Origin: Candidatus Gugararchaeum adminiculabundum
GTDB lineage: Archaea; Micrarchaeota; Micrarchaeia; Burarchaeales; Gugararchaeaceae
Length of the DNA stretch: 64,000 nucleotides
NCBI GenBank assembly: GCA_902384795.1
Contig: CABMDC010000004.1
Span: forward strand, 1,002-65,001
Direction of reading: 5' to 3'
Within the stretch, counting starts at the first letter, position 1. Each line of letters starts with the position of its first letter. The translations under genes were made by a program, and so were the position numbers. Below the pieces are notes generated by a model. The model worked only from the letters and a program-made list of their open reading frames with translations. It was not told the DNA's origin and made no database searches. This document shows positions 8,795-57,171 of the stretch, piece after piece.

Positions 8795-8837
<43 letters not shown>

Positions 8838-42250: not shown

Positions 42251-43276
42251 TCATTTCTTGCTAAAATCAATTCCCCGGAGCATAATAACCTTTTCGTTTT
42301 CATCAAGGGAAATCCCGGCATTGCAGAACTGCCCTATCACCGATGCATTGGTTTTCGCATGGCTGGAAATTTCGCTTGTCCTGATTTTGCTTTCTCCGTG
42401 CGCCAGGGCGGCGAAAATCATAAGTTGGTCCGCGAGGTGAACATCAACGCACGCTCCTGCATCAATTTCTTGCTTGAGCGCAGTTGCCGCTTCCTCTCCG
42501 ACTTTTTCAGCGCTCTTGCCGATTTTCCCGAGCGAGCTCGCGCCAAGGAATCCTTTCCACAGAGTGATTGCGGTTCCAGGGCAGGAAGTTTTCACGGAAA
42601 TCGCAGGCACATCACAGCTTCCCAGGATTTCGCCTGCGGAATTCGCCTGCCTGTCCGCGATTGTTTGCGGAAGGTTTGATGCGATTGACACGCCGCGAAT
42701 CGGCGCGTTAGCCATGTTCGTTCCTGTTCCGTCAAATCTCGCGGCTTTCAGTTTCCCTCCAGCAATTGGTTCAATTTTCAAAACAACTTTCCCGCCGCCT
42801 TTGGGGTAAAATCCGTAATTTCCGATTTCCAGCGAAGTGCGCGCGCCAAACTCGGCAAGCGCGGGCAGGAGGACTTTTTGGGTATAATCAATGGTGGGCG
42901 AATGATCCACATGCGTTCCGCCGGTGATTGCTATATGCGAAGGCTTGCTGGCAAACAACAGGACTGGGACAATGGACTGCAGGACCAGGGAAATCGCCCC
43001 GGCTGTGCCCACGTCGAAAGCGAATTCTCCCCCGGAAATCGCGCCCGGCTCAAAGGAAACTTCGGTCGAGCCGATTGCAGCCCCGTTAACCCTGGCATTG
43101 CAGATTTTCTGGAGCGCGAGGATTCCTGCCAAATGCTGGGCTTTCAAGCCCGGTTTCTCCCTTCCAGCCCGGATATTGGCAATATGCGCCGGTTTTCCGA
43201 GGATACAGCTAAGGGCGAGCGAAGTTCTAAGGATTTGCCCGCCCCCTTCAAGCGACGAGCCGTCAATTTCAAGCAT
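42251..43276 (-). CDS. rtcA: RNA 3'-terminal phosphate cyclase
   Basis: LEGGGQILRTSLALS, REKPGLKAQHL and HLADQL, 341 aa. Confidence 0.9.
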   Translation of the reverse strand: MLEIDGSSLEGGGQILRTSLALSCILGKPAHIANIRAGREKPGLKAQHLAGILALQKICNARVNGAAIGSTEVSFEPGAISGGEFAFDVGTAGAISLVLQSIVPVLLFASKPSHIAITGGTHVDHSPTIDYTQKVLLPALAEFGARTSLEIGNYGFYPKGGGKVVLKIEPIAGGKLKAARFDGTGTNMANAPIRGVSIASNLPQTIADRQANSAGEILGSCDVPAISVKTSCPGTAITLWKGFLGASSLGKIGKSAEKVGEEAATALKQEIDAGACVDVHLADQLMIFAALAHGESKIRTSEISSHAKTNASVIGQFCNAGISLDENEKVIMLRGIDFSKK

Positions 43277-43313
43277 GGAATTGATTTAAAGAAGAATCGG
43301 CTTAAACCTAACC

Positions 43314-43508
43314 ATGGTAAACATCATCAATTTCCAGAAAGCAAGCTTTACCCGGATGCTATTGGCCCTTCCGCTCGCGGGATGCATCTATTTCGCCATC
43401 TTTTCCAATGACATGATGACCCGGGCGGTCGCCCTGGCTATCGCAGTGGCCGTGGAGGGGGTGCGGGACGCCTTCCTTATCGCCGAGCTTACTGTGCACA
43501 AAAAATAG
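43314..43508 (+). CDS. candidate small membrane protein
   Basis: 64 aa with two hydrophobic segments. ATTTAAA lies about 25 nt upstream of the ATG (leaderless geometry). Confidence 0.4.
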   Translation: MVNIINFQKASFTRMLLALPLAGCIYFAIFSNDMMTRAVALAIAVAVEGVRDAFLIAELTVHKK

Positions 43509-43529
43509 GTTCGAGGGAGCCAAAAAGGG

Positions 43530-43550
43530 CTATTTAAAGGGTTTAAATAG
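43530..43550. promoter_or_regulatory. 9-bp perfect inverted repeat made of two TATA-like boxes
   Basis: CTATTTAAA-GGG-TTTAAATAG, immediately after the 43314..43508 stop. Confidence 0.35.
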
Positions 43551-43619
43551 GGGCGAAAAAAGCACCTTCGACGCCCGACGAAACCCGGATACCTTTATAT
43601 TCGTATTGGTAATATAAGT

Positions 43620-43750
43620 ATAGTTTCTGCGTCTTCTCTACCTCTGCCTTCGGGCAGAAAACTGGTCGCCTTGCCAGCGCCGTAGTGCGCTGGCCTAATT
43701 TTCTCAACCTCCAGCTTTAGCGCCAGGGCTCCGGGATTTGCCCTATACCC
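43620..43750 (+). ncRNA. candidate structured small RNA (unclassified)
   Basis: GC-rich island in a 300-nt gap, preceded by CTTTATAT (43593-43600). It contains hairpins CTGCC-TTCG-GGCAG (43643-43656), GCCAGCGC-CGTAGT-GCGCTGGC (43673-43694) and AGGGC-TCCGGGATT-GCCCT (43724-43743). The downstream gene has its own TATA (43775-43782). Confidence 0.3.
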
Positions 43751-43806
43751 TTTAAACCACTAATTATAACAACGTTTATATACCCTGAAAACCAAATATA
43801 CTCACC

Positions 43807-44856
43807 ATGGCAGACATCATACCTTTCCGCCCAAAAGAGGCCGGCGCAGAGAAATCCCGCCTAGACCTGCAAAAAATAGCAAAACCCCTAAATCTGTCCC
43901 AGCTGAGTTTTTCAGACAATCCGCTGGTGCAGATGTTTACCCGGAGGGTTGAGCGGAAAACGAGCGAACGGGCCATTCAATTCAGGTTTCTTAGTGAAAA
44001 ACGGATTCCAAAGATAGAAGGAATCTATGGCATTGCCGCGGCCGCAGAAGCCGTGGAAAAAATAGGGGAGGCAGTGGAACACGTGCACCGGCTTCCGATT
44101 TCCCATGAAATAAAAGAAAGTTTTATCTCAAAGTTTGATTTTGAAAATGAAACTAAATGGGAACTCGGCAGGATAATCCAAAAAGCAAGTGAAATGCACG
44201 GGATTATCAGCAGAATTCCCGCAGAAGAGCACATGCGGCACAAGCTGATGGTTCTGGCTTCCATACGCTCATGCCTTGAGCACGCGGTTCTGCTTGCTGA
44301 AAACGGCGAAGATGAAATATATATGCGCCTAGAGCTTGCCACAAGGATTGGCGGCTTCAATGGCGTGCTTCTTAACTACAATCCGAAACTCCCGCCGGTT
44401 TTTGTAACCGGTTTGGAGAGAAGGGGCAATTACCTGACCATCGGGGGGACCCCGCTTGAACTGCTGCTTTCAATTGTTGAAAAAGTGCCGAGTTTCCTGA
44501 TTCCTGCAATGCTGTTCAACTCAATCATATACAAGGAATGGCAACATCTCATTAACGCGCTTGGCGATTACCGGCCGGTGAGTGAAAGGGTCGCAAGCGT
44601 TGAATTCAGCGAAGTGTTTGAGCGGGCACGCAAAGAGGTGGCGCGCTCATTTATGAAACAAGGAGTCCTGACTGCCGATGTTTTGAAGGCAATAAACCAA
44701 ATCTGGGTAATGGAAATGGCGCTGGAAACCATGCTCAAAAAAAAGCGCTCTCAAATAAGCGCGGATGAAGTTATAACCACCTACAAATCGGATTATTCCG
44801 GCTTCGGCCAGGGGCTGAAAAAAGAGCTTGAGAAAATTGTCGGCCCGATTAATTAG
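43807..44856 (+). CDS. hypothetical protein (orphan), convergent with the giant ORF
   Basis: 349 aa, ATG 25 nt after TTTATATA, no TM helix and no recognisable motif. Confidence 0.6.
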   Translation: MADIIPFRPKEAGAEKSRLDLQKIAKPLNLSQLSFSDNPLVQMFTRRVERKTSERAIQFRFLSEKRIPKIEGIYGIAAAAEAVEKIGEAVEHVHRLPISHEIKESFISKFDFENETKWELGRIIQKASEMHGIISRIPAEEHMRHKLMVLASIRSCLEHAVLLAENGEDEIYMRLELATRIGGFNGVLLNYNPKLPPVFVTGLERRGNYLTIGGTPLELLLSIVEKVPSFLIPAMLFNSIIYKEWQHLINALGDYRPVSERVASVEFSEVFERARKEVARSFMKQGVLTADVLKAINQIWVMEMALETMLKKKRSQISADEVITTYKSDYSGFGQGLKKELEKIVGPIN

Positions 44857-44861
44857 TCTTC

Positions 44862-47800
44862 TTATTTGCTGGTTATAGCAAGCGCTTCAAATGATCTGCC
44901 TTGTATAAGGTCGCTCCCGTAACTGCCAACGGCATTCGCGAATATCGCTCGAGCAGGTTTTGGTGCTGCGCTAATCCTGACTTTCTTTTGTGGATTTTCG
45001 GTTATTCCCGTTTCTTTTCTGAAGTTTTCAAGCCCTTCTGCCAAATTTTTACCCTCATAATAGTATACCCTGGGTTTTTCATGGCCGGCTGCCTCGAGAT
45101 CTGAGAACGTTTTTTCATACTGCGCTTTCTTTGATTTGGGCATCAATACCACGCCCAAGTCCAGATCAACTTCGTGGGACTTATGGAGGGGGTCATCAGA
45201 TAGCCCCATAAGCGGAGAATCGGCTTTTGTTTTGCTGTTCATTAATGGATCGTAAGCAAAACCATGCCCATTTTCCATCGCAGCCTCCAGCGGAAGCACT
45301 ATGGCTATATCGGATATATCCACCGCAGCTCCGTTCACCACAGTGTGCACATAAGGAGTAGAGATTCTATTAGTCTTGATACCGTTGTTTGTTCTTTCTT
45401 CGTATATCCCTCTCCCAATGAGGTGCCCGCTTTCAAATATCTTAGTCTGCAGATTTTCATCCGGAGTCATGGCATGCACTAGCAGATTGCCCGACCCCTT
45501 ATCTTTTACCAAGTGGGTGTATTCTTCCAGAGTCATGTCCTTGATTGTGCTTTCGTTCCATGTTTTCCTGGCGCTGGGGTCAATTTCATAATTTTTCTTA
45601 AAACTCGCTATCTGTTCCTTAGTAAACAGTTTCATCTCAACAAACTGCATATGCCCGTTGTATTCGAATCTCCCGTCATTTTTCAACATGTCCGCGAAGT
45701 CGTTTAGGTGGATGTTTTTCCCTTCGAATTCTACTCCCGTTGTGGTCAACTCAGGCAGATATTTAACAACCTGCAAAATCGCTTCCCTGTTAATGCCATC
45801 CGTGCGGGACAGAGTGTCCACCAGGCTGCGGGCATCAATTTTTCCAGCATCAAGGTCAGGAGCTTGGACGAACTCCCCGCGCGAATCCTTTACTGGATCA
45901 AGGGAGTTGATAATGGATGCGATTACTTTTGCATCAGGGTTTTTTTCCAGATAAGGCAGGCTGGCTTCGACAAGATTATTTTCAGTTTGGGAATATCTGC
46001 TATCCCGCTCTAATTTACGGTTTATTTTTCGAAGTAAATCGCTTACGCTTTTATCGCTTGCCAGGTCGCCATTTTTGTGTATGGCATCGAATATGTCTGG
46101 CAGTAAATCCTCCGTCCGAACCCCCTCGCTTCCTATCCTGTCCGCCAGTTCGTTTGCAGCGTTAGTTCTATGCTCTGGTTTAGAAAGAAGATTTGCCAGC
46201 TCTTTTGGTGTGCTGTTTTTTAAATCGCCAATTTGAACTGGCGCTGTTTCTTCGCTGGATGGTTTCTCAACCGTAGCTGTTTCTTTATTGACTTTTTTCT
46301 GCGCTGGTGCATGCTCACCACCGCTTTTTTTTGGTGCATTAAACGCCTTGAGAATCTGGTCCTTGGTCAGCCCTTCCTTCTGCAGTGTATCAAACGCGCT
46401 TTCAACGCTTTTCCTGTATTTTCCTTCGGCCGCGTCTATGCGATTTTCAGCCTCCGCTTTCTTTGCCTGAACATCATCTGGATGGAGGAATTTTGTGCTG
46501 CCATCGGCATTTTTAACGCGGTACATTCCGGTTTTACTGTCCAGCCCTCTTGCAACCGCATCGTCGATTCTCCGCAGATCGCTGGTTTCAGTTTCCATCA
46601 CGTTCTGCCAATTTATGTACCTGTCTTGGGCTTCGCCGAATTTGGGTGCGACCGTATCGTAGAATTCATTCCTAGGCACCTCTGTTAAATCGGAAAGCGT
46701 CCTCAGCCCTTTTGCAACATCGGTTGGCAGCTGGTATCTTCGGTCTGAGCCATAAACTTCGGATTGCCGGGCCCAGGCGTTTGTATTTTCCGGAGCTTTC
46801 GCGCCTTCAACCGAACCCTGGAACATCTTGTCAAATGTTTCAGGCCCGATGCGCGTAGCAATTTCCGCCGAGGTTGCGGCTGGCGTCTGCACCTGTGCTC
46901 CGCCTTTCCCGGCTGCCTCGTTTGGAGAAATTTCTGTTTCCGGCCTTGCAACAGGAACTGATTTTTCTTTTGGAATTGCGGCAGCCGCATTTTTATTATC
47001 CGCCACTTCCGTGAGAAATTCGCTGAGTTTGATCGGAGGATCTCCGCGCGCCCTCCTCATCGTATTCATCGCGTCCCACGCCGTAAGCATCGGGTCCGTT
47101 TCTTCGGTTTGTGTTTTGGCTTTCAGCCCGGCCGCTTCTCCCTGCTTGATTTCCGTGTATGGCTTTGGCGCAGTAACCGCGTTCCCGCTCTCCAATTCTT
47201 TGGCTTTCCCCTCGCAATAGTTTGCTTCACGGGTTCCGGGGACGAGCGCCCTTTCCCTAAATGTTTCGTAATCAACATTTGGCATCATGCTTGCAATGCC
47301 CTGGCTGTGGAGCGATGCATTGTGAATTTTGAGCTCGTCCCAAAAGCCCTTAATCATCTGATCGGTCAAAACAGGCGCCTTTGCCACCGGTTCTGGTTCT
47401 ACCCTTGCAGTTCCTGGCTCGTTTTCATCATGCGGGGGCCCGCCCTCCTTACTGGCCGCGCCCAGTGCGTTTCCCTGGGTCTGCTCAAAAACTTTCAGCT
47501 TATTCGTTACGGCTAATTCCGAGTTCAAGCCTTTTCCATTGTAATATTTCTCAAGCCCTTTGATTATCGGAGTATAGTCTCCGCTTGTCAGCGCCTTGAA
47601 TAGGATTTCGTCTCCGTTCTTGCCAAGGAACTTTGAGAATTCTTCAATGCGGGCCACTTCATTGGTATAGCCGGTGCTCTTCCGGCCTGTTGCTTTGCCT
47701 GTGAAGTACTCGGTAAGGCCTTCGTGCATTCCCTGGAAGACTTTATTCAGGTTCGGGTATTTTTGTGCAAGAGCGGCCTGCTCCTTATAGTTTTGCAAAA

Positions 47801-50800
47801 TTGTCGGATCGCTTGCTTTTTCGAGCCTTAGTTTGTTTCTCAATTCGCCAAGCGCGGTTTTTACCTGCTTGCTTTCCTCGTAAATGTCCAGCACCTTGTT
47901 GTCACTTGCATATTTTTTGGAGGGATCCGGGTGAACTGTCATTTCCTTCAAATCGAGCTTATTCCTGACTTCGCCCAGGGCGGCTTTTAGTTCATTCTTA
48001 TCAACAGGCTCTTTGTTGACCGCCTTGTCAAGAACAGCTTTTGATTGCGGGGAGATTTCAGTGTCAATTCCAATAACTTTTCCTCCTGTTGCCCTGGTCC
48101 TAACCGCGCCATCCAGGACAAAGCGCGAGGCAAATGACAGTTCTTCGCGGGAATAGGGGGTGGCTTCGTGCATGAACTCATGGACCAGCAGGCCGGATAT
48201 GCGGGGTATGTCTAGGCCTTTGCTAGGTTCATAGCGTATCATAATAACCGGAGGATCCTTGCCCGTAGCGTCAACGATATGCAAACCAGCGGTTCTTCCG
48301 CCCTTGCCGGGCGGCAAAATCCGATCCATTGTCACGCCGTCCACAAACAGGAATTTGACGCCTGTGTATTTCCGTGCAAAATCCGGGGAATAGGACTTCT
48401 CAAGATTCCCCAGCGCTTTTCTTGCAATAACTGTCAGGTCGCGCATTTCATTAAGTGTTTCTCCTTTGGGCACTTCCAGGCCAGAGCCAATGTAGATTTT
48501 TGCCCCTTCTCCCTTCGGGACATTTGCTTCGTTCAAGCACTTCCGGGCAAAGGCGCTCTGCTGTTCGGAAGTGTGCAGCTGCATCGCCTGCCATGTCCCT
48601 TTCGCGTCGCGCACATAGCCAAGTTTTGTCAGAGCGTCCGCGCTCTTGAATTCCCATCCGTTTTTATCTATGTTCCAGAGCAGGCCTCCTTTTCCTTCTG
48701 AATTCTTGATGCGGCCGACTTCCCAAATTATCGTATCCCCGCTGGGCGTAGTCACCTGAAGTTTTCCCTCGCCTACTGTCTTCACTTGCGTGGGCCCGAG
48801 CACCGTGGCCGCTTCCTCAAAAAATCGTCCGTTGTAATCGATGTAAGTCATTGGGCCGGAGGTGGAGAGCGTGGTGGAACGTTCCCCTTTCGGGGCTTGT
48901 GGAAGCATCTCTCCTGACATCACTCCGTCATAAATAATCCGTGCAGCCTGCATTCTGCGCAGCTCGGTAAACTTCTGCTGTGGGGTCAACTTCCTCCACT
49001 CGGGCGATTTCACCATGTCTTCGTAGGGTTTTCTCATTTCAGGGGAAGTTTTGAGCTTGCCTGCAAGATCGATGATTTTCTGCTCAATCGGAATTTCAGT
49101 TTCAGTAACCGGCGCGCGCGGCCGTGTTCCTGTTCTGTTTCTGTCAGTAGTTTCAGATTCCGGAATGTCGGTTCCGATCCGCTTGGTTTTGGGCGCGGCT
49201 TTTTCAACCGGTGTTTGCGCTTCATGCGGATTCTCCCTTGAGGCGGCAATCCTTACCTTTGATTCCGCAACCGGCGTTTTTGTTTCAGTTTCAACTTTTG
49301 CAGTTATTTTTGTTTCAGTTTTCACCGCAGGTTCCGGAGCCGTTGTTTTCTTGGCAATTTCGGTTTTCGGAGCCGTTGCCTTGGTTTCCGTTCCTTTCTC
49401 TATGGGAGTTATTTTCGCTTTGCCATCTGTTTTTTTCGCCCCGCCAATTTGGTTCAGAAGGTCTGCGCGGCGATCAAACTCCTTGCCAAGGACTACTCCC
49501 TCCGCTGGTGCCGTTTCTGGAACTATCGCGGATTTTGAAGTTGCTGTTTCAACTGGGCGCGCTGATGCTGGAACTAATCCGCCGGCGCCCACTTCCGCCT
49601 TTGCCCTTCCGACTGCAAAATAATTCATCACATCCTGTGGAATTTTATTCACTTCGCGGCTAAGAGTCGGCATGTCCAGCTGTTTTCCGGTTGCGCCCTT
49701 GTACATATGCCCAAGAAAAACAAGGTTGACCGCGATGCTGGACACATCATTCATTATTCGCTCGGAATCTCCCCGGTTTTGTACAATATCATAAATCAAA
49801 GTTCCGCTGTTCTTGACCATATCTGTTCCCATCATGATTGACCCGGCTTTGGAAGCAATCCTGGCTGCAGTGCTTCCCTCCTGCGCGACTTTGCCCAGGC
49901 TTCCTCCGAATACCATGGTCGCATCAACGCCCAGCCTCCAGGCGTCTTCACCGCTGAACTTGCCTGTCGTATAGGTGTTATACCCGGTTCTGCCCATGTC
50001 ATAAAGCGCCTGCGCCTGGAAATACAGTATCGCTTTCTCTCCTGCAAATCTCAAGCCAGCGCTCCACGCGCTTGCCGCAGCAACTCCTTCAGGCTGCAAA
50101 GTGAGCAGGCTCAGCAGCGTCAGAATCGGCGGGCCAGCCTGCATTGCAGTGTCCACTCCAGCCTGCACAAAAGTATTCGTGTTCTCATAGTTCATCTTGG
50201 ATTCAAAACCAGCGAATGCACCCGACACAAATTGGTGCTTGTATTTAGTATACGAAGCCTTGTCGGTTACTGATGCAAGCATGTTTGCGCCTGCAGTGAG
50301 CCCGCTGATTGAATCCCCAAGAACAGTCGCCTTCTGGCTTTTGGACAAGCCGGTTTCGCCTGCCACGTAATCAAACGCAGTTCCCATGTACAGCATAAGC
50401 TGATCGAAATGTTTGCCATTGAGTTCTGCATCTACCGCTGCCCCGTCTTTTCGAAGCAATCTTGAGTAAAGTGTATTCGCCGCAATGCTGAACCCGTTTG
50501 CATTGCTTTCAAGACTAACCCACTCTTTTCCTTCCACTGACCTTGCAAGATTTCTGACCCAGAGTACGGTGGTGTCTTTCGTGCCAAGCTTGGAGATATC
50601 GTCGTGCAATTTGTCCGCAACCATTTTGAGGCTCTGGGAGAGGAACACAGCGTAATCAACCGTGCCGTTCTTATTCACCCAGTCATAGTGCGCGTTCTTG
50701 CCTTCGTTCCAAGTTCTTGCAAGCCCCTGGATGCGGCCCCTCATCACCAAACTAACGTCCGGGCAATTGCTGAAGTTTTTCGCATACTGATCAGTGAGAA

Positions 50801-52373
50801 AACTAAATGTCTTCATTGCATTCGGCTCGCTCACTATTTTTGCAAGCGCCACATCCCCTTTCCGGATTTTCTGATTGATCAGCGTAAGCTGCTCCAGAGT
50901 TGCTCGATTGCTCTTGTCCCCGCTATTTATCAGAGCCTGCGCGCAGCCATTGAGCATTGAAAGTGACGGGACCGCATATTGAAGGTCAATACTGAGATTT
51001 TCATGTCTTTTCAGTGCTGCTTCACGCTGTTCCGGAGTTGTTGCGTTTTTGAGGTCCGCGTTTACGCTGGTTATTCTGTCCTCCCACACAGAACCCCGCA
51101 GAAACTGTAGCGAACCTCTTGGAGAGGTAATCCCCGCTAGCTGATTTCTGGTGCTTGCTTCTGCGCTAGCCACCTGAAAGTTAGTGAACATGTCGCTGAA
51201 TTCTTTCAGAAGCCCGGGCAGGTCTTCAGGCTTTGCCCCCTGGAGCCTTGAACGCATGTCCGTGAGTTCTGATTTCCAGTTTTTGCGCATTTCAAGCAAA
51301 GTCGGATCCCCTGCGCCTTTGTTCGTGCGCAGGTTTGCTTCGAAAGCTTCCAGGGTTTTGTCGCACATATCAATTGCCATGCCCTGCTTCTGGGCAGTGT
51401 CCCTGGCGACTGCCTCTTTTATGATCGGAGCCATTTTTGTTTCAAAAGCCTGCATTTCGGTTCCAAGTTTTTTCTCCAGGGCAGTTGCTTTTGCCTCAAG
51501 CTTTGAAAAATTGTCGAAATGGTTCAACGAATCGGCGTATAATTTTTGGGATGTTTTCTCGTCGCCGTTAGCCAGCGCATCCACTGCCTTACGGTAATCG
51601 GAATTCATTGCGTCGTGCTCTTTTTTCATCTGCTTCTGCATATCACTGAGCTCTTTTGTGGCGCTCTCGATACCACTGGCATAACCTTTTGTCTTTGGAT
51701 TGGCTTGCAGCATGGGCTTGAAGTTTTCCAGTTCTTGTTTTCCCGCATCAATGTTCTGCGCAATAACTGCAAACCTGGCTTCGTTTGTGGTGGATTTTTC
51801 AGAGCAGGAGTATATGCTGGTTAAAACAAATACCTGTGTTTGGTAAATACTTTTAAGGCGCGTCTGGACTTTTTGCGAGTTCAGCTCTAATTCAGGCAGC
51901 GTTGACAGGGTCTGCATCTCGGTCTTCAAATCATTGAGCTTTCCTAGGACGAAATTCTTTGTTTCCAGTGGAAGAACGACTTGTTCAGTTAATGTAGTTA
52001 GGTGGTCTATAGCCGCTATTCCATTCTGCACATATTCCTTGTTGGTCAGTATTTGCCCGGTTTGCTGCCGTGGGGCAGTCGGGGCGATTATAGCTGCCGG
52101 CGCCTGGACAGCCTTGGGTTCCACTGGCTTTTCCGGTTGAGTCGCGTTCTTTAGGTTGTCAAAAGTCTTATCCGCAGGAGGAGTAGTTAGGATATTGTCA
52201 GTATTTAGGAGACCTGTTTTTTTATGCTCGAGGCCGCCCAGAAATTGGGTTACAAATGCTCCCTGGGCCTGTTTTTGCAGTTGCGCTGCTTTTTGCGCTT
52301 CCGCTGGCGATTGTATTGGAGCGACTGCCTGTTTCAGCCCCCCCTCCTCAGGCTCTTTTTTATACCCGGTCAT
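44862..52373 (-). CDS. giant 2503-aa protein with one HExxH zincin-like motif
   Basis: Uninterrupted 7.5-kb ORF with no N-terminal signal peptide. The N-terminal ~650 aa are coiled-coil-like. A Gly/Ala-rich hydrophobic patch spans about aa 690-890. A Lys/Thr/Glu/Pro low-complexity linker spans about aa 980-1100. LLVHEFMHEATPY places HEFMH at nt 48168-48182. There is an internal repeat ALGEVRNKL / ALGELRNKL. The C-terminal ~300 aa are unassigned. Confidence 0.85.
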   Translation of the reverse strand: MTGYKKEPEEGGLKQAVAPIQSPAEAQKAAQLQKQAQGAFVTQFLGGLEHKKTGLLNTDNILTTPPADKTFDNLKNATQPEKPVEPKAVQAPAAIIAPTAPRQQTGQILTNKEYVQNGIAAIDHLTTLTEQVVLPLETKNFVLGKLNDLKTEMQTLSTLPELELNSQKVQTRLKSIYQTQVFVLTSIYSCSEKSTTNEARFAVIAQNIDAGKQELENFKPMLQANPKTKGYASGIESATKELSDMQKQMKKEHDAMNSDYRKAVDALANGDEKTSQKLYADSLNHFDNFSKLEAKATALEKKLGTEMQAFETKMAPIIKEAVARDTAQKQGMAIDMCDKTLEAFEANLRTNKGAGDPTLLEMRKNWKSELTDMRSRLQGAKPEDLPGLLKEFSDMFTNFQVASAEASTRNQLAGITSPRGSLQFLRGSVWEDRITSVNADLKNATTPEQREAALKRHENLSIDLQYAVPSLSMLNGCAQALINSGDKSNRATLEQLTLINQKIRKGDVALAKIVSEPNAMKTFSFLTDQYAKNFSNCPDVSLVMRGRIQGLARTWNEGKNAHYDWVNKNGTVDYAVFLSQSLKMVADKLHDDISKLGTKDTTVLWVRNLARSVEGKEWVSLESNANGFSIAANTLYSRLLRKDGAAVDAELNGKHFDQLMLYMGTAFDYVAGETGLSKSQKATVLGDSISGLTAGANMLASVTDKASYTKYKHQFVSGAFAGFESKMNYENTNTFVQAGVDTAMQAGPPILTLLSLLTLQPEGVAAASAWSAGLRFAGEKAILYFQAQALYDMGRTGYNTYTTGKFSGEDAWRLGVDATMVFGGSLGKVAQEGSTAARIASKAGSIMMGTDMVKNSGTLIYDIVQNRGDSERIMNDVSSIAVNLVFLGHMYKGATGKQLDMPTLSREVNKIPQDVMNYFAVGRAKAEVGAGGLVPASARPVETATSKSAIVPETAPAEGVVLGKEFDRRADLLNQIGGAKKTDGKAKITPIEKGTETKATAPKTEIAKKTTAPEPAVKTETKITAKVETETKTPVAESKVRIAASRENPHEAQTPVEKAAPKTKRIGTDIPESETTDRNRTGTRPRAPVTETEIPIEQKIIDLAGKLKTSPEMRKPYEDMVKSPEWRKLTPQQKFTELRRMQAARIIYDGVMSGEMLPQAPKGERSTTLSTSGPMTYIDYNGRFFEEAATVLGPTQVKTVGEGKLQVTTPSGDTIIWEVGRIKNSEGKGGLLWNIDKNGWEFKSADALTKLGYVRDAKGTWQAMQLHTSEQQSAFARKCLNEANVPKGEGAKIYIGSGLEVPKGETLNEMRDLTVIARKALGNLEKSYSPDFARKYTGVKFLFVDGVTMDRILPPGKGGRTAGLHIVDATGKDPPVIMIRYEPSKGLDIPRISGLLVHEFMHEATPYSREELSFASRFVLDGAVRTRATGGKVIGIDTEISPQSKAVLDKAVNKEPVDKNELKAALGEVRNKLDLKEMTVHPDPSKKYASDNKVLDIYEESKQVKTALGELRNKLRLEKASDPTILQNYKEQAALAQKYPNLNKVFQGMHEGLTEYFTGKATGRKSTGYTNEVARIEEFSKFLGKNGDEILFKALTSGDYTPIIKGLEKYYNGKGLNSELAVTNKLKVFEQTQGNALGAASKEGGPPHDENEPGTARVEPEPVAKAPVLTDQMIKGFWDELKIHNASLHSQGIASMMPNVDYETFRERALVPGTREANYCEGKAKELESGNAVTAPKPYTEIKQGEAAGLKAKTQTEETDPMLTAWDAMNTMRRARGDPPIKLSEFLTEVADNKNAAAAIPKEKSVPVARPETEISPNEAAGKGGAQVQTPAATSAEIATRIGPETFDKMFQGSVEGAKAPENTNAWARQSEVYGSDRRYQLPTDVAKGLRTLSDLTEVPRNEFYDTVAPKFGEAQDRYINWQNVMETETSDLRRIDDAVARGLDSKTGMYRVKNADGSTKFLHPDDVQAKKAEAENRIDAAEGKYRKSVESAFDTLQKEGLTKDQILKAFNAPKKSGGEHAPAQKKVNKETATVEKPSSEETAPVQIGDLKNSTPKELANLLSKPEHRTNAANELADRIGSEGVRTEDLLPDIFDAIHKNGDLASDKSVSDLLRKINRKLERDSRYSQTENNLVEASLPYLEKNPDAKVIASIINSLDPVKDSRGEFVQAPDLDAGKIDARSLVDTLSRTDGINREAILQVVKYLPELTTTGVEFEGKNIHLNDFADMLKNDGRFEYNGHMQFVEMKLFTKEQIASFKKNYEIDPSARKTWNESTIKDMTLEEYTHLVKDKGSGNLLVHAMTPDENLQTKIFESGHLIGRGIYEERTNNGIKTNRISTPYVHTVVNGAAVDISDIAIVLPLEAAMENGHGFAYDPLMNSKTKADSPLMGLSDDPLHKSHEVDLDLGVVLMPKSKKAQYEKTFSDLEAAGHEKPRVYYYEGKNLAEGLENFRKETGITENPQKKVRISAAPKPARAIFANAVGSYGSDLIQGRSFEALAITSK

Positions 52374-52433
52374 CCGAATATATCTTGCAACTTAGGGGAT
52401 TAATATATATTCCTTATACCCCAAGTAAACCCG

Positions 52434-53288
52434 ATGATTGACAACGCTGACCTGTACGAGGGCGTAAAATTCATGGAAGAAAAGCAGTACGCGAAAGCGA
52501 TAGTGAGCTTGGACGATATTGCGCATAAAAAAGGCGAATGCTTCGAGATTTACGAGCTCCAGGGAATGTGCTATTATCACATGGAAGACTGGCGGAACGC
52601 GGTAAGAACCCTCGCAACAGCCATTTCCTATCTGGAATCCCCGCAACCTAATCTCTATCAGTTCAAGGGGCTCGCGAACCTATACCTGGGCGAGTTTTCA
52701 TTCTCGGTCCATGATTTGTTCCTGGCGCTCCGCTACACCCCGGTTGAAACGCTTTCCGGCGAAGCGGACCTGCTTTCAAACATCTTTTTCGCGTGCGTGC
52801 TCGCAGGCGATGAGAGGGCGCATAAGATTTTCGATTTGGGTTACAGCCATTGCCCTGAAAGGATGATGGATAACATACAGCAGCTGTTTGACTCGTTTTT
52901 CGTCAAAATGAACGTTCCCCAAGATGAAAAAATCGCAATGCAGGAGCAAATCAACCAATTGAAGGAGCAGGCAGAAGCGGACCAGAAAGTAATTGAGAAG
53001 ATGACCGCTGCACGGGGAGAAAAGCTTACTGCGCTCATTGACAATCTGAAGAATTTGAAAATCGCGAAAAAACCTGAAAATCCCCTTAACTACGAGGCAC
53101 GGGACAAAATCAAGGAATTGGTAGGGGCGGAAGAGGAAAAGCCCGAAGAGCAGGGTGAAGAGACAACAGCCGAAATTCCTGTTCCCAGAGAGGAAAAGAA
53201 AGAAGCTCCTAAGCCAAAGGAGAGGAAAACAGGGAAAGAAGCTGCTGACGATTTCATCAAAAAAATCAAGAATAGGGGCAAGAAATAG
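52434..53288 (+). CDS. TPR-like protein with Lys/Glu-rich tail
   Basis: 284 aa. TPR-like helices (KQYAKAIVSLDDI, WRNAVRTLATAISY) and an EEKPEEQGEE...KERKTGKE tail. TAATATATAT lies about 25 nt upstream, in the 60-nt gap shared with the giant ORF. Confidence 0.65.
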   Translation: MIDNADLYEGVKFMEEKQYAKAIVSLDDIAHKKGECFEIYELQGMCYYHMEDWRNAVRTLATAISYLESPQPNLYQFKGLANLYLGEFSFSVHDLFLALRYTPVETLSGEADLLSNIFFACVLAGDERAHKIFDLGYSHCPERMMDNIQQLFDSFFVKMNVPQDEKIAMQEQINQLKEQAEADQKVIEKMTAARGEKLTALIDNLKNLKIAKKPENPLNYEARDKIKELVGAEEEKPEEQGEETTAEIPVPREEKKEAPKPKERKTGKEAADDFIKKIKNRGKK

Positions 53289-53347: not shown

Positions 53348-54232
53348 ATGACAAGGGAGGATTTGCTGAACAAGACCGCACATGAACTGGTTAGCAAGGG
53401 CTATGAATCCTATTCCTGCGCTGGCACGCATTCCTGCTTTGACATTGCTGCCAAGAAAGGGCAGACCATGCTCGTAAAAGTATTGGAGAACATTGACGCA
53501 TTAACTGAAGAGCAGGCCCAGGCGATCAAAAGCACTGCGTCCATGCTGAAAGGCGAAAGCTTCCTGGTTGGTGAAAGGGCGCGCGACATTAAACTCGAAG
53601 ATGGTGTGATCTATGAGAGATACTCTGTTCCGGCCGGGAATGTTGCAACTTTCAAAATGGTGATTGAAAACGAGTATCCCATTTTCAAGAAAATCCACAA
53701 GGGGGTTGCGAAAATCGACGGGAAAATGATGGAAAAGGCGCGCGAAAAAGCAAAATTAAGCATTGCCGACCTTGCGAAGAAAACAAACATTTCACGCGAA
53801 ACGCTTTACAGGTATGAAAAGAATGAGATTTGTGCGAGCAGGGAAAATGTCGAGGCGATTGAGAAAATTGTGCATGAGAAGATTGCAACCAAATTCGACC
53901 CGTTTGAAGCAAGCTCGCATTCTACTCCGCGCACTTTCAAGTTCATTGGCATTGATGCGATTCATGTGAAAAATCCGTTTGACCTTTTTGCAGCTGACAA
54001 GGAAAGGAAAAACAAATTCATTGCAGAAACCAAGCATGATGTGAGAACTCTCACGAAGAGGGCGGGCATGCTGGACAAGCTGGGCGAGATGTTCGATTCG
54101 CGCTATTTCATCTTCTCGCGCAAGGAAAAGAAGGACAATATCGCGGGAATACCGGTTGTGAAGCAGGAGGAGATTGGCGAGCTGAAAAACGTGAAGCAGC
54201 TGATCAAACTGGTGGAAGAGCGAGCTAACTAA
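53348..54232 (+). CDS. HTH (XRE-type) transcriptional regulator, COG1395-like
   Basis: 294 aa with a central LSIADLAKKTNISRETLYRYEKNE helix-turn-helix. Confidence 0.6.
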   Translation: MTREDLLNKTAHELVSKGYESYSCAGTHSCFDIAAKKGQTMLVKVLENIDALTEEQAQAIKSTASMLKGESFLVGERARDIKLEDGVIYERYSVPAGNVATFKMVIENEYPIFKKIHKGVAKIDGKMMEKAREKAKLSIADLAKKTNISRETLYRYEKNEICASRENVEAIEKIVHEKIATKFDPFEASSHSTPRTFKFIGIDAIHVKNPFDLFAADKERKNKFIAETKHDVRTLTKRAGMLDKLGEMFDSRYFIFSRKEKKDNIAGIPVVKQEEIGELKNVKQLIKLVEERAN

Positions 54233-54282: not shown

Positions 54283-54391
54283 GGGCCCGTGTGGCAACCT
54301 GGATAACCGGCGGGGCTTCGAATAGCCCTTTTGCGCAAGGCGCATGGTTGGAGGCAACCCCGAGATATGGGTTCAAATCCCGTCGGGCCCG
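54283..54391 (+). tRNA. tRNA-Arg (anticodon UCG) with 35-nt intron after position 37
   Basis: Folded by hand. Acceptor stem GGGCCCG/CGGGCCC. Anticodon stem CGGGG/CCCCG, with loop CT-TCG-AA once 54322-54356 is removed. T arm ATGGG-TTCAAAT-CCCGT. Discriminator G, no encoded CCA, T-tract follows. Mature length 74 nt. The D stem is only 3 bp (UGG/CCG). Confidence 0.8.
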
Positions 54392-54453
54392 TTTTTCTTT
54401 TTTCGCTCTCTTTTTATCACAACTTTATATACTTTTTCACACATAAGCAAATC

Positions 54454-54930
54454 ATGAAAGCTTCCGCCGTAATCAGATTGGATTCTGATATAATCGCACT
54501 TGACCTGACGCAGATAGAGAGCCTGCATCCAGCCGCATATAACTGTGGAACCAAAGGGGGCAAAGCTCTCCCGCAAAATCTTGTTTTCACTATGACTTTC
54601 CAGCGGGCTTTGCTGGAGAGCGTAACCAATGGAGAGGCAACCCGCTATCCAGAAGCCCCGATTCCGGTAGTTAATGACGAAATGACAGAGGTCGGTTTGA
54701 CGAAAATACTCGGGAAGGTTGCGATAGTGGTAACTACTTCCATAGACAACCCGAAAAAATCGGAAAGCCAAATAACCGTTATCGGGCGCAGGGAAGACAA
54801 AGAGAAAGTGAATATCCTGATGGGCATCGTCACGCAGCAGATAGAACAGTTGCAGACTACGCGGAAATTCAGAGAACTGGATGCCCCCACTAGACAAAAA
54901 CTCGGGGAAATGGCGAAACTCAGCCACTAA
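54454..54930 (+). CDS. hypothetical protein
   Basis: 158 aa from ATG 54454, with CTTTATATAC about 25 nt upstream. The track's longer ORF (54331) overlaps the tRNA and was trimmed. Confidence 0.55.
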   Translation: MKASAVIRLDSDIIALDLTQIESLHPAAYNCGTKGGKALPQNLVFTMTFQRALLESVTNGEATRYPEAPIPVVNDEMTEVGLTKILGKVAIVVTTSIDNPKKSESQITVIGRREDKEKVNILMGIVTQQIEQLQTTRKFRELDAPTRQKLGEMAKLSH

Positions 54931-55003
54931 CTAGGGACGAAGAAAAATAAAACTAGAAAAAGAACTTTAAAAGAAATTAAAAAAATTAAAGATTAAAAGA
55001 AAC

Positions 55004-55369
55004 CTATCCCTTTCTGCTTTTTACGATTTTTACCTTGGTAGGTGTCAGAAGGATCTTGTCATTGTCAATCCTTGCCATGTCGCCGTTCATCTTGCCCACA
55101 TGGTCCTTCAGCTTCGCGAGAATGCTCTTCAGCGCAGCCGCGTTCCTTGCCATGGGCGCGATGTTAAGCAGGATTATGTTCTTCTGTGCGAGCTCCTGGG
55201 TTATGACCTTGACATCATCCTCGTTCTCGAGCGCAACGGGCTTGATGTAGAAATCAGCCGCCTCGTGCAACACGTCGACATTCTCGAGCTCCACTGCATC
55301 CATATACTCCTCGATATCAGTGTCCTTGTTGACGCCAAGGGCGCCTGTCAATTTCTTGATTATGCTCAC
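55004..55369 (-). CDS. sepF: SepF-like cell-division protein (DUF552)
   Basis: 121 aa. It follows the pattern FYIKPVALENEDDVKVITQELAQKNIILLNI ... GDMARIDNDKILLTPTKVKI typical of SepF. Confidence 0.65.
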   Translation of the reverse strand: MSIIKKLTGALGVNKDTDIEEYMDAVELENVDVLHEAADFYIKPVALENEDDVKVITQELAQKNIILLNIAPMARNAAALKSILAKLKDHVGKMNGDMARIDNDKILLTPTKVKIVKSRKG

Positions 55370-55764: not shown

Positions 55765-57171
55765 ATGGCGCGCTTTGGGGAAATATTCATCCCCGGGTGT
55801 TCTCTTATGGTTGGTTCGTTTAAAGAAATCTTAGCAGAGTCCAGCATTTTCCTGGATAGGAACGTTTTGCTACCACACTACATACCGGCCCATCTGCCCC
55901 ACAGGGAAAAATACATCGAAAAAGTGATGCGCAGCGTATCCCCGGCCCTGCAGGGCGCAAAGCCAAGGAACCTGTTCATCTATGGAAAAGTCGGCACTGG
56001 CAAAACCTGCTGCGTAAAGCACGTGATGCAGAAATTCGAGCAAATGGAATCCAGCTCCAAAATGACTTACATCAACTGCCGGGTTTACAATTCGCGCTAC
56101 AAAATTTTCCAGAAAATTGTCAAGGACTATATTCCGGAGCAGGACAAGCCCGGGTTCGGGCTGCAGTATTTCTACGAGAATATTGTGAAATGGGTGGAAC
56201 AGGAGAAACGCCACCTGATCGTGGTGCTGGATGAAATTGACGTTGTCCATGATTTGAATGAATTGGTTTACAATTTCACAAGAGCCAATGATGATCTCAA
56301 GGCCGGTGGAATTTCGATTCTTGGAATTTCCAACAAGCTTTCGTTCAAAGAGCGGCTCGACAACAGAAGCAAAAGCGCGCTCTATGAGACCGAGCTGGTA
56401 TTCCCGCCCTATAACGCGAACCAGCTCCAGGAAATTCTAATTGAAAGGGTGAAAATGGGCTATGCCAACAGCAGCGTTGATGAGGCCGCACTGAACCTGG
56501 CGTCAGCGGTTGCTGCGCAGGAAACAGGGGATGCAAGGTACGCACTCAAGCTGATTCTGCGCGCAGGCGAATTGGTTCTTGATTCTGGGAGACGAATTGT
56601 GACTGAAAGCGATGTGGAACAGGCGCGCAAGAGCGTTGACGAGGATGTCATCACTGATGCGATCTCCACATTGCCAGAGCACCAGCAGATGGTGCTTTAC
56701 TCAGTGGCGAATCTGGCAATCACCGGCGGCAGGTATTCCAAGCTAGCGGCAATCGAGGATGACGGGAATTATTTGATGTCAGGGGAAGTTTACGAAGGGT
56801 ATCTTTCTTCCTGCTCAAAATATAGGAAGCGCGCCCGCTCCATGCGCTGGTTCCAGGAATATCTGGGCGAGCTGGAAGTTTTCGGATTGATTTCAATGCT
56901 TGAAAGCGGCCAGGGAGTGCGCGGAAGAAGCAGGCTCATTAAAATTGGCTATTCTCCTGAAAGGGTGAAGGGGATTATTGAAAAGAATTTCAATGGCGGC
57001 TACCGCAATGAGGACAGCAAGGATGCCGGGAATAATGGCGGCAATGCTGTCCTGGCGGCCAATGAACACAATGGCGGTTCGGCAGAAATGGCCAAAGGAA
57101 ACAATGGCGGGAACGGCGGTTCAATAAACGCGGCTAGCCTGGAAAACAGAAACAACGGCGGCGCGGTTTGA
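55765..57171 (+). CDS. orc1: Orc1/Cdc6 replication initiator with Asn/Gly-rich C-terminal extension
   Basis: Walker A GKVGTGKT, Walker B VVLDEID, sensor/winged-helix region GDARYALKLI. The last ~60 aa are N/G low complexity (NNGGNAVLAANEHNGGSAEMAKGNNGGNGGS). Confidence 0.93.
   Translation: MARFGEIFIPGCSLMVGSFKEILAESSIFLDRNVLLPHYIPAHLPHREKYIEKVMRSVSPALQGAKPRNLFIYGKVGTGKTCCVKHVMQKFEQMESSSKMTYINCRVYNSRYKIFQKIVKDYIPEQDKPGFGLQYFYENIVKWVEQEKRHLIVVLDEIDVVHDLNELVYNFTRANDDLKAGGISILGISNKLSFKERLDNRSKSALYETELVFPPYNANQLQEILIERVKMGYANSSVDEAALNLASAVAAQETGDARYALKLILRAGELVLDSGRRIVTESDVEQARKSVDEDVITDAISTLPEHQQMVLYSVANLAITGGRYSKLAAIEDDGNYLMSGEVYEGYLSSCSKYRKRARSMRWFQEYLGELEVFGLISMLESGQGVRGRSRLIKIGYSPERVKGIIEKNFNGGYRNEDSKDAGNNGGNAVLAANEHNGGSAEMAKGNNGGNGGSINAASLENRNNGGAV

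What the first reader, a model, noticed from the sequence alone, without database searches (positions are those of the whole stretch)
44862..52373. Giant 2503-aa ORF with a lone HExxH motif and no export signal
Seen directly: an uninterrupted 7.5-kb ORF in a window whose other genes average about 0.8 kb. It has no signal peptide. It has a long coiled-coil-like N-terminal third and a Gly/Ala-rich hydrophobic patch (about aa 690-890, nt about 49700-50300). A Lys/Thr/Glu/Pro linker lies at nt about 49070-49440. A single zincin-type HEFMH sits at 48168-48182, embedded in a region predicted by eye to be globular. A short internal repeat (ALGEVRNKL / ALGELRNKL) and an unassigned C-terminal ~300 aa complete it. 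The gene is bracketed by two orphans: a convergent 349-aa gene and a divergent TPR-like gene sharing a 60-nt promoter gap. Established knowledge: giant multidomain proteins are typical of episymbiotic small-genome archaea and of polymorphic toxin/effector systems. Inference only: it may be a host-interaction or effector protein with a metallopeptidase module. I recognise no described family.
Basis: partly seen in the sequence, partly recalled or inferred. Interest (0 to 1): 0.7.

Follow-up and report, generated by a model that had tools for sequence, protein, structure and literature searches.

The report
Orphan giant archaeal protein, one conserved domain
A real 2503-residue gene on an archaeal chromosome is almost entirely without relatives; its HExxH "protease" motif cannot be confirmed, and only its last ~310 residues belong to a rare, undescribed enzyme-like domain, otherwise found mostly inside giant (where the context is readable, bacterial) proteins.

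Summary
ORF 44862-52373 (-) encodes 2503 aa. Codon usage is native and the coding signal stays in one frame throughout.

No Pfam, NCBIfam, PHROG, PADLOC or PDB sequence match exists for any part. A full HMMER scan of 1.84 billion proteins with aa 1304-2503 found nothing for the HExxH region. Its single-sequence AlphaFold model failed (pLDDT 38). A lone HExxH arises by chance in 3.4% of shuffles.

The "unassigned" C-terminus is the informative part. Residues ~2200-2500 match 16 proteins (E down to 1e-19), most of them giant proteins carrying FHA, Metallophos, methyltransferase or DnaJ modules. Two have readable contexts, both bacterial and chromosomal. The domain folds confidently (pLDDT 86) and has invariant Ser, His, His and Glu. 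Its best structural neighbours are ADP-ribosyltransferase-fold effectors (OspC3, SopF/DUF3626, SdeA), but these matches are weak and not significant.

My best reading (confidence 0.35) is a cytoplasmic scaffold protein carrying an ART-like enzyme. Nearby biosynthetic genes argue against a reduced episymbiont. Interest is moderate to low.

The parts
44862..52373 (-). Giant ORF: 2503 aa, 274 kDa, pI 7.0.
   Evidence: Native codon usage and a continuous frame-0 coding signal.
52059..52373 (-). aa 1-105: A/Q/K/P-rich low-complexity N-terminus with no hydrophobic signal-like segment.
   Evidence: Residues 63-103 are poor in hydrophobic residues. The maximum KD19 in the first 70 aa is 0.31.
50454..52058 (-). 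aa 106-640: helical region with coiled-coil-like stretches.
   Evidence: Heptad score is above the 99th percentile of shuffles at aa 221-350, 451-523 and 569-599. Only weak sub-threshold hits to helical families such as MIT, Spectrin and apolipoprotein.
49476..50453 (-). aa 641-966: G/A/S/T-rich, low-charge, moderately hydrophobic segment. It is not a clear TM helix.
   Evidence: The maximum KD19 is 1.31, at aa 750.
49074..49475 (-). aa 967-1100: disordered-looking K/T/E/P/A linker.
47574..48461 (-). aa 1305-1600: orphan globular region holding the candidate zincin elements.
   Evidence: No homologue, no family hit. The AF2 single-sequence model has pLDDT 37.7.
48168..48182 (-). HEFMH, aa 1398-1402: the only HExxH in the protein.
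   Evidence: Chance occurrence is 3.4%.
47703..47729 (-). MHEGLTEYF, aa 1549-1557: a possible third-ligand Glu helix of gluzincin type. This is a by-eye lead only.
   Evidence: Position. The resemblance to M1/Peptidase_MA 'EGxxxY/F' motifs is from memory and was not tested.
47829..47981 (-). Two copies of a 17-aa unit, ELKAALGEVRNKLDLKE and QVKTALGELRNKLRLEK, 42 aa apart.
   Evidence: The phmmer match to the DC-SIGNR neck repeats (E 3e-4) looks like a coiled-coil repeat resemblance.
46191..47513 (-). aa 1621-2061: small modules separated by four low-hydrophobicity linkers.
   Evidence: linkers at aa 1621-1673, 1721-1762, 1788-1850 and 1954-2061.
45807..46190 (-). aa 2062-2189: helical segment before the conserved domain.
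   Evidence: Sequence only. No homologue found.
44865..45806 (-). aa 2190-2503: conserved C-terminal domain, the only part with relatives. Invariant residues are S2294, H2300, H2343, E2367, P2376, G2390 and P2434. Near-invariant residues are G2295, G2316, E2363, N2368, Y2439, G2441 and S2468.
   Evidence: The AF2 model has pLDDT 85.8 and pTM 0.84.
52374..52433 (.). 60-nt divergent intergenic region. An AT-rich, TATA-like element TTAATATATATT lies at 52400-52411, 27-38 nt from the giant's ATG and 23-34 nt from the neighbour's ATG.
   Evidence: Sequence. The promoter role is an inference.
43807..44856 (+). Convergent 349-aa orphan gene.
   Evidence: No family hit in Pfam, NCBIfam or PADLOC; in PHROGs only a sub-threshold hit to phrog_11755 (unknown function, E 0.052). 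No viral relatives.
52434..53288 (+). Divergent 284-aa gene with weak TPR-like signals.
   Evidence: TPR_9, TPR_2 and TPR_6 at E 0.004-0.03, all below cut-off. No viral relatives.
53348..54232 (+). 294-aa HTH_3 (XRE-type) DNA-binding protein downstream of the TPR-like gene.
   Evidence: PF01381, E 2.5e-10.

Best explanation
The ORF encodes a genuine, chromosomally native, probably cytoplasmic 274-kDa 'beads-on-a-string' protein. A helical, partly coiled-coil N-terminal part and several disordered linkers act as scaffold and tethers. These tethers hold at least one enzyme, the C-terminal domain (aa 2190-2503).

This domain belongs to a rare, undescribed family that is otherwise embedded mostly in giant proteins next to FHA, Metallophos, methyltransferase and DnaJ modules. 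The two relatives with a readable context are bacterial.

I propose that it is a highly divergent ADP-ribosyltransferase-fold enzyme. On this reading it uses NAD+ through an H...H...E triad (H2300, H2343, E2367) to modify a protein or nucleic-acid target inside the cell. The purpose would be regulation or conflict/defence. The HExxH region may add a zincin-type peptidase activity, but that is unproven.

Shown: the gene is real; it has no relatives outside the C-terminus; the domain family and its invariant residues exist; the domain model is confident.

Inferred: the ART-like chemistry, the cytoplasmic location and the biological role.
For: Gene reality and location:
- Native codon usage and an unbroken frame signal.
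- No signal-like or TM-like segment.

The conserved domain:
- Only aa ~2200-2500 has homologues: 16 of 1.84e9 representatives, E 1e-19 to 3e-4. This was confirmed locally.
- The 15-sequence alignment has invariant S, H, H, E, P, G and P. The giant keeps all of them.
- The AF2 model has pLDDT 85.8 and pTM 0.84.

ART-like signals:
- The top Foldseek PDB hits are ART-fold effectors: OspC3 at ranks 1-3, SopF with NAD at ranks 11 and 14 (the highest TM-scores among the hits listed, 0.26-0.30), and SdeA (5yim) at rank 45.
- BFVD matches include a DUF3626 protein. DUF3626 is the SopF domain (PMC6682159).
- SopF is an ART with an I-Y-E triad (PMC10333799).
- hhalign against E. coli KptA aligns the family's SGhlAxHxT..IL..GYL motif to KptA's LYHGT..IKKQGL ART motif. 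With relaxed settings it also aligns fVHFSxD to YVHLSxD, colinearly.

Domain partners and context in relatives:
- FHA, Metallophos, methyltransferase and DnaJ.
- Where the context is readable, it is bacterial and chromosomal.
Against: - All structural matches are statistically weak. The best PDB E-value is 0.13, TM is at most 0.30, and no hit reaches E<=0.001.
- hhalign probabilities are 3.4% and 0.8%.
- No Pfam ART-clan model matches any family member, even at E<=10.
- No Tpt1 structure appears among the top 50 Foldseek hits, although the PDB holds many.
- The KptA comparison was chosen after I had seen the motif by eye, so its P-value is optimistic.
- Cytoplasmic location rests on a hydropathy scan only.
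- Residues 1-1303 were searched only with the word-index tool, which also missed known homologues.
Confidence: 0.35

Rival explanations
1. One reading: a host- or competitor-directed effector whose active module is a zincin metallopeptidase centred on HEFMH. It would be exported by a non-classical route.
For: - A single HExxH in a hydrophobic, helix-like context (LLVHEFMHE), with only 3.4% chance occurrence.
- The low-confidence AF2 secondary structure places strands before the motif and a helix over it.
- A downstream HEGLTEYF could supply a Glu ligand (by eye).
- Three of the ten other giant (>1,400 aa) proteins sharing the C-terminal domain also carry an HExxH, against 0.44 expected (P about 0.01).
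Against: - No zincin family hit, even at E<=10.
- No homologue of this region, so conservation is untestable.
- The model is unusable (pLDDT 37.7) and no zincin appears among its Foldseek hits.
- The HExxH-to-HEGLTEY spacing of about 150 aa is far longer than in gluzincins I know of.
- No secretion or trafficking domain was found, and no co-directional immunity-like gene.
- The genomic context is housekeeping and biosynthetic.
Confidence: 0.15
2. A non-catalytic structural or scaffolding protein (cytoskeletal, envelope-associated or chromatin-associated). On this reading HExxH is a chance occurrence and the C-terminal domain is a binding module rather than an enzyme.
For: - Long helical and coiled-coil stretches, many disordered linkers, very few Cys, and neutral pI.
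- No catalytic family was detected anywhere.
- The gene lies near SepF, Orc1/Cdc6 and MCM.
Against: The invariant polar residues (S, H, H, E, N) across 23-32% identical relatives are typical of an active site rather than a binding surface.
Confidence: 0.2
3. Cargo of an integrated mobile element or virus: a polyvalent protein, a tape-measure-like protein, or an aloposon-like giant gene.
For: - It sits in an ~11-kb block of orphan genes plus an XRE-type HTH, with slightly lower GC at the flanks.
- Giant genes on Asgard mobile elements are documented (PMC8813620).
- There are weak tblastn hits to Bacillus phage tape-measure genes, E 0.1.
Against: - Codon usage is native.
- No integrase, tRNA or flanking direct repeats were found.
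- There are no relatives in IMG/VR, INPHARED phages or PLSDB plasmids.
- The aloposon hallmarks (tandem giant genes, a tRNA site, ParA) are absent.
Confidence: 0.1
4. An artefact: an assembly chimera, or a spurious long ORF.
For: The protein cluster has one member sequence on one contig.
Against: - The frame-0 codon signal is positive in all 12 blocks.
- Composition is uniform, and no repeats occur at which a mis-join could happen.
- A 7.5-kb stop-free frame at about 49% GC is not a chance event.
Confidence: 0.03

Closest known systems
ADP-ribosyltransferase-fold effectors: SopF/DUF3626 (PDB 7DN8/7DN9), OspC3 (7WR4) and the SdeA mART domain (5YIM)
   Same: They are the best, though weak, structural neighbours of the confident C-terminal model. 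The ordered triad on strand-strand-Glu elements resembles H-Y-E and I-Y-E ARTs.
   Different: - There is no significant E-value, TM is at most 0.30, and no ART-clan Pfam model matches.
- Those proteins are small secreted effectors of pathogens. This domain sits in giant, apparently cytoplasmic proteins.
Tpt1/KptA RNA 2'-phosphotransferase (H-H-h clade of ARTs)
   Same: The motif resemblance is colinear: LRHxPE..G..LD..GW, hYHGT..I...GL and YVHLSxD against the family's h(R/H)xxPEL..G....G, SGhlAxHxT..IL..GYL and fVHFSxD.
   Different: - hhalign probability is only 0.8-3.4%.
- The catalytic R-H-R-R tetrad is not kept: the giant has K-Y and T/S at those positions.
- No Tpt1 structure is among the Foldseek hits.
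Zincin (clan MA) metallopeptidases
   Same: The HExxH motif sits in a hydrophobic, helix-like context, and a candidate downstream Glu motif is present.
   Different: There is no profile match, no usable model and no homologues. The ligand spacing would be atypical.
Giant genes of uncultivated prokaryotes: Omnitrophota giant genes (bioRxiv 10.1101/2023.11.21.568195) and Asgard aloposon giants Otus/Ephialtes (PMC8813620)
   Same: It is a very long, largely unannotatable multidomain ORF from a metagenome-derived genome. The relatives of its C-terminal domain are themselves proteins of 2,000 to over 5,000 aa.
   Different: - At 2503 aa it is modest by those standards.
- It has no tandem giant partner, tRNA integration site or ParA.
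- No cell-wall-degrading or adhesion domains were detected.
Polymorphic toxin and polyvalent proteins
   Same: It has a long modular architecture with an enzyme-like domain at the extreme C-terminus.
   Different: - No trafficking or pre-toxin domains were found.
- The downstream gene is convergent rather than a co-directional immunity gene.
- The domain is internal in its relatives, and there are no plasmid or phage relatives.

Membership tests
Zincin metallopeptidase (clan MA) | An HExxH zinc-binding and catalytic motif | tested here: met
   HEFMH at aa 1398-1402. Chance occurrence is 3.4%.
Zincin metallopeptidase (clan MA) | A third zinc ligand (Glu, His or Asp) at family-typical spacing | tested here: inconclusive
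   There is no HExxHxxGxxH. The candidates are E1410/E1411, D1421 or the HEGLTEYF motif about 150 aa downstream. None can be validated without homologues or a structure.
Zincin metallopeptidase (clan MA) | The zincin fold: a mixed beta-sheet, the active-site helix and a lower helical subdomain | tested here: inconclusive
   The single-sequence AF2 model has pLDDT 37.7. Its Foldseek matches are noise and include no zincin.
Zincin metallopeptidase (clan MA) | A profile match to any peptidase family, or conservation of the motif in homologues | tested here: not met
   No Pfam or NCBIfam hit, even at E<=10 on tiles. No homologue of aa 1304-2190 among 1.84e9 representatives.
ADP-ribosyltransferase superfamily | The ART split beta-sheet NAD-binding fold | tested here: inconclusive
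   The model is confident. ART-fold proteins top the PDB list, but only at E 0.13-2.5 and TM 0.15-0.30. A DUF3626 phage protein matches in BFVD with probability 0.33.
ADP-ribosyltransferase superfamily | A catalytic triad (H-Y-E, R-S-E or H-H-h) on strands 1, 2 and 5 | tested here: inconclusive
   Invariant H2300 (strand), H2343 (strand) and E2367 (before a strand) occur in that order. I had no coordinates to check their spatial proximity.
ADP-ribosyltransferase superfamily | A sequence-profile match to an ART-clan family | tested here: not met
   hmmscan of all 15 members at E<=10 gave no ART family. PDB profile searches gave none either.
ADP-ribosyltransferase superfamily | NAD+ binding or consumption | not testable with these tools
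   This needs biochemistry or ligand-aware structure prediction.
Tpt1/KptA RNA 2'-phosphotransferase | The conserved R-H-R-R catalytic tetrad and a significant profile match | tested here: not met
   hhalign probability is 3.4% against KptA and 0.8% against a 4-sequence Tpt1 alignment. The tetrad positions are not conserved. No Tpt1 is in the Foldseek top 50.
Polymorphic toxin system | An N-terminal trafficking or secretion domain, a variable C-terminal toxin and a co-directional downstream immunity gene | tested here: not met
   No such domains were found. The downstream gene is convergent. The domain is internal in relatives.
Asgard 'aloposon' giant genes | Tandem giant genes, tRNA-site integration and an upstream ParA/MinD cassette (PMC8813620) | tested here: not met
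   There is a single giant ORF and no tRNA in 64 kb. No ParA lies nearby.
TPR protein (the divergent neighbour) | TPR repeats above family thresholds | tested here: not met
   The best hit is TPR_9, E 0.0038, 17.6 bits against a cut-off of 35.

The most novel reading that the evidence does not exclude
The C-terminal domain founds a new, very rare NAD+-utilising ART/Tpt1-like enzyme family. This family marks a cross-domain class of giant cytoplasmic multi-enzyme proteins, present in archaea and bacteria and partnered with FHA, phosphatase, methyltransferase and possibly zincin modules. These proteins would act in intracellular conflict or signalling. The archaeal protein would be a first archaeal example that couples the domain to a novel metallopeptidase.
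Probability: 0.2. Interest if true: 0.6.

Novelty: new variant of a known kind. Interest (0 to 1): 0.35.

Why it matters
If the C-terminal domain is a new ART-like enzyme, it would add a family to the NAD+-dependent modification toolkit. It would also give a functional handle on a set of otherwise opaque giant prokaryotic proteins.

As it stands, the finding is one more largely unannotatable giant ORF from an uncultivated archaeon. The concrete gains are three:
- The overlooked C-terminus is the conserved, testable part.
- Specific residues (H2300, H2343, E2367; E1399) are nominated for mutagenesis.

Tried and rejected
Family and sequence searches that found nothing:
- Whole-protein and 10-tile scans against Pfam, and whole-protein scans against NCBIfam, PHROGs and PADLOC, gave nothing above noise.
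- phmmer and profile searches against PDB sequences gave only a coiled-coil repeat resemblance to DC-SIGNR and spurious hits.
- The search for homologous proteins returned only the protein itself for the whole query.
- The same tool returned nothing for aa 400-960 and nothing for alignment A1. The last two runs missed sequences known to match, so this tool's negatives carry little weight.

Collection scans that found nothing:
- Scans of genome, metagenome and viral contigs with the whole protein found no relatives.
- An RtcA scan intended to find syntenic relatives returned only bacterial loci at 36-40% identity.
- Exact look-ups of the giant and of RtcA are not on record, so the organism could not be named.
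- tblastn against phages and plasmids found nothing.
- Viral scans with the two flanking orphans and with short-form domain relatives found nothing.

Other dead ends:
- The 2H-phosphoesterase idea (two HxT/S motifs) was considered and dropped. The first motif is not conserved and no 2H fold appears in the Foldseek results.
- Tpt1 membership was tested and rejected.
- A search for att-like or internal DNA repeats found none.
- The intergenic region 43277-43806 has no Rfam match and no unusual fold, z = -1.3.
- Foldseek on the failed HExxH model was run for completeness and is meaningless.
Full report
**Observation**

The window is archaeal. It holds a complete 16S-23S rRNA operon and chromosomal housekeeping genes.

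- The ORF at 44862-52373 (minus strand) is real: ATG start, 2503 codons, one terminal stop. It is three times longer than any other ORF in the window.
- Its codon usage is as close to a 15-gene housekeeping reference as those genes are to each other (KL 0.086). The reference codon model prefers frame 0 over frames 1 and 2 in all twelve 200-codon blocks.
- There are no internal DNA repeats or tandem arrays at which an assembly could have mis-joined.
  - the single HEFMH (aa 1398; nt 48168-48182);
  - the two 9-mers at aa 1465 and 1507;
  - the K/T/E/P linker;
  - the G/A-rich low-charge segment;
  - the 5-nt convergent junction with a 349-aa ORF;
  - the 60-nt divergent gap to a 284-aa ORF.
- Two descriptions are only partly borne out. 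Coiled-coil-like heptad signal is confined to patches between aa 221 and 709. The neighbour's TPR hits are all below threshold.
- A hydropathy scan finds no signal-peptide-like or TM-like segment.
- A lone HExxH arises in 3.4% of shuffles of this protein. It is suggestive but not compelling on its own.

**What the protein matches**

Almost nothing.

- Pfam (whole protein and ten overlapping 400-aa tiles, down to E = 10) and whole-protein scans of NCBIfam, PHROGs and PADLOC give no credible hit. Neither do PDB sequences.
- Scans of GTDB genomes, JGI metagenomes, IMG/VR, INPHARED phages and PLSDB plasmids find no relative of the whole protein.
- The decisive search was a full HMMER scan of 1.84 billion cluster representatives with aa 1304-2503. 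Nothing matches aa 1304-2190, which includes the HExxH region.
- In the same scan, 16 proteins match aa ~2200-2500, with E-values from 1e-19 to 3e-4.
- Local phmmer and tblastn confirm that this is the only shared region.

**The C-terminal domain**

- The relatives are mostly giant proteins themselves (2175, 2367, 2503, 2646, 2828, 3085, 4421 and 4666 aa). One metagenomic ORF reaches at least 5050 aa.
- The domain is internal in these proteins rather than terminal. The two long-form 'short' relatives (P0004, 690 aa; P0007, 601 aa) look truncated: P0004's gene fills its whole 2-kb contig and P0007's match ends at its last residues. The other short forms include complete genes of 285 and 609 aa.
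- The only recognisable partner domains are FHA (three proteins), Metallophos, two methyltransferases and DnaJ.
- The two readable genomic contexts are ordinary bacterial chromosome: RecG plus fatty-acid synthesis genes, and DnaA-DnaN-GyrB-GyrA.
- None of the relatives is on a viral contig.
- A 15-sequence alignment at 23-32% identity has invariant S2294, H2300, H2343, E2367, P2376, G2390 and P2434. Near-invariant are G2295, G2316, E2363, N2368, Y2439, G2441 and S2468. The archaeal protein keeps every one.
- This pattern of conserved polar residues reads as an active site.
- No Pfam model matches any member, even at E = 10, so the family is undescribed in that library.

**Fold of the C-terminal domain**

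- With the 15-sequence alignment, AlphaFold2 gives a confident model: mean pLDDT 85.8, pTM 0.84.
- Foldseek finds no significant neighbour in the PDB. The best E-value is 0.13.
- The top of the list is nevertheless dominated by ADP-ribosyltransferase-fold bacterial effectors:
  - OspC3 at ranks 1-3;
  - SopF with and without NAD at ranks 11 and 14, with the highest TM-scores among the hits listed (0.26-0.30);
  - SdeA at rank 45 (5YIM identified through PMC8548325).
- Against BFVD the best matches are uncharacterised giant-virus proteins (E 3e-3, probability about 1.0, TM 0.41-0.52 on the target). A phage DUF3626 protein also appears.
- DUF3626 is the SopF domain (PMC6682159). SopF is an ART with an I-Y-E triad (PMC10333799).
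- By eye, the family motifs SGhlAxHxT..IL..GYLIP, fVHFSxD and LENxAF follow the order and strand context of the H-Y-E and H-H-h ART triads.
- I tested this against a real Tpt1/KptA sequence from E. coli K-12. hhalign does pick exactly the ART histidine motif. With relaxed settings it extends colinearly through the N-lobe and the VHLS motif.
- The statistics are poor, however. The probabilities are 3.4% and, against a four-sequence Tpt1 alignment, 0.8%.
- The Tpt1 catalytic tetrad is not conserved, and no Tpt1 structure appears in the Foldseek list.
- I therefore reject Tpt1 membership. 'Divergent ART-like enzyme' remains the leading but unproven reading of the domain.

**The HExxH region**

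- A single-sequence AlphaFold model of aa 1285-1645 failed (pLDDT 37.7). Its Foldseek matches are noise and include no zincin.
- Some circumstantial points favour a peptidase:
  - the hydrophobic context LLVHEFMHE;
  - low-confidence strands predicted before the motif and a helix over it;
  - a downstream HEGLTEYF that recalls gluzincin Glu-helix motifs (from memory, untested);
  - three HExxH motifs among the ten other giant (>1,400 aa) proteins of the domain family, against 0.44 expected (P about 0.01).
- Those three motifs sit in unrelated sequence and have no Pfam support.
- Against a peptidase: there is no profile match of any kind, and the spacing between the putative ligands would be unusually long.
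- Verdict: cannot tell.

**Context and lifestyle**

- The gene order is MCM, HAD, FolE2, prepilin peptidase, DUF92, RtcA, the 349-aa orphan, the giant gene, the TPR-like gene, an XRE-type HTH, unannotatable ORFs, SepF, Orc1/Cdc6, HD, and homoserine dehydrogenase.
- Elsewhere the window encodes PdxS, PLP-dependent enzymes, a class I tRNA synthetase and a DEAD-box helicase.
- This is not the gene content expected of a reduced episymbiont.
- There is no integrase, tRNA or att-like repeat to mark a mobile element.
- The 60-nt divergent gap contains an AT-rich, TATA-like element (52400-52411). It is placed for short-leader or leaderless transcription in both directions (inference).

**Conclusion**

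- The finding is a real, native, largely orphan giant gene.
- The useful result is that the C-terminal ~310 residues define a rare, undescribed, enzyme-like domain shared mostly with giant (where readable, bacterial) proteins, and that this domain is plausibly ART-like.
- My preferred mechanism is a cytoplasmic scaffold that tethers an NAD+-using modifying enzyme, and perhaps a peptidase. I hold this at about 0.35 confidence.

**Limitations**

- Residues 1-1303 and the two flanking orphans were not searched with the sensitive method.
- The word-index homology tool demonstrably missed known relatives.
- The organism could not be named.

Noticed in passing
window 7609-9702 (SSU rRNA, -), ORF 8101-8583 (-): The 16S rRNA gene spans 2094 nt against a 1478-position model, which implies an insertion of about 600 nt. 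Inside it lies a 160-aa ORF with two LAGLIDADG-like motifs seen by eye (LAYLIGLW..., AAYIAGVFDAMGG). This is probably an rRNA intron with a homing endonuclease. It has no Pfam hit at E<=0.01. The 23S gene is also about 260 nt longer than its model.
   Followed up: partly
window 1-64000; 16S-23S spacer 7284-7608: ARAGORN finds no tRNA gene anywhere in the 64 kb, including the rRNA spacer. The absence of a spacer tRNA-Ala may be taxonomically informative.
   Followed up: no
window 55004-55369 (-), 55765-57171 (+), 35099-37189 (-): A SepF homologue (PF04472, E 9e-12) lies divergent from an Orc1/Cdc6 gene across an AT-rich gap containing short A-rich tandem repeats (54957-55002). An MCM gene lies 20 kb away. 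This could be a replication-origin neighbourhood. The organism uses FtsZ/SepF-type division.
   Followed up: no
window 52400-52411: A near-palindromic AT-rich element, TTAATATATATT, is centred about 32 nt from the giant gene's ATG and about 28 nt from the divergent gene's ATG. A single TATA-like box may serve both directions with leaderless or short-leader transcripts.
   Followed up: no
window 54331-54930 (+) and 54373-54927 (-): Two nearly coextensive ORFs of 199 and 184 aa lie on opposite strands. Neither has a Pfam hit, so the coding strand is undetermined.
   Followed up: partly
L013 8-15160 (metagenome contig ORMF011947287.1): An ORF of at least 5050 aa carries the same C-terminal-type domain internally, plus an FHA domain (E 1.8e-12). 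It is otherwise unannotatable and may extend beyond the fetched locus.
   Followed up: partly
P0002 aa 430, P0010 aa 2163, P0009 aa 1361: Three other giant proteins with the shared domain carry zincin-looking HExxH motifs (for example VFLHEFGHAV and IMAHELVHAL). They sit in regions unrelated to each other and to the window's protein, with no Pfam support. The mild enrichment (3 observed against 0.44 expected) is unexplained.
   Followed up: partly
window 42251-43276 (-): An RtcA RNA 3'-phosphate cyclase gene lies 1.6 kb beyond the giant gene's 3' end on the same strand. This is curious given the weak Tpt1/ART-like (RNA-end chemistry) resemblance of the C-terminal domain, but a convergent gene intervenes and no link was shown.
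   Followed up: no
tool behaviour: the search for homologous proteins returned nothing for a sub-fragment of the window's own protein. It also returned nothing for an alignment whose members exist in the related 1.84-billion library. Negative results from that tool should not be read as absence.
   Followed up: yes
P0013, P0015, P0016 (285-609 aa): A short-form subgroup of the domain family has an extra insert (NWNEEE.PT.S). It comes from very short contigs, including one from an assembly with more than 125,000 contigs (WNFI01...). Together with the structural matches to Tupanvirus and Klosneuvirus proteins, this raises the possibility of eukaryote- or giant-virus-associated members.
   Followed up: partly
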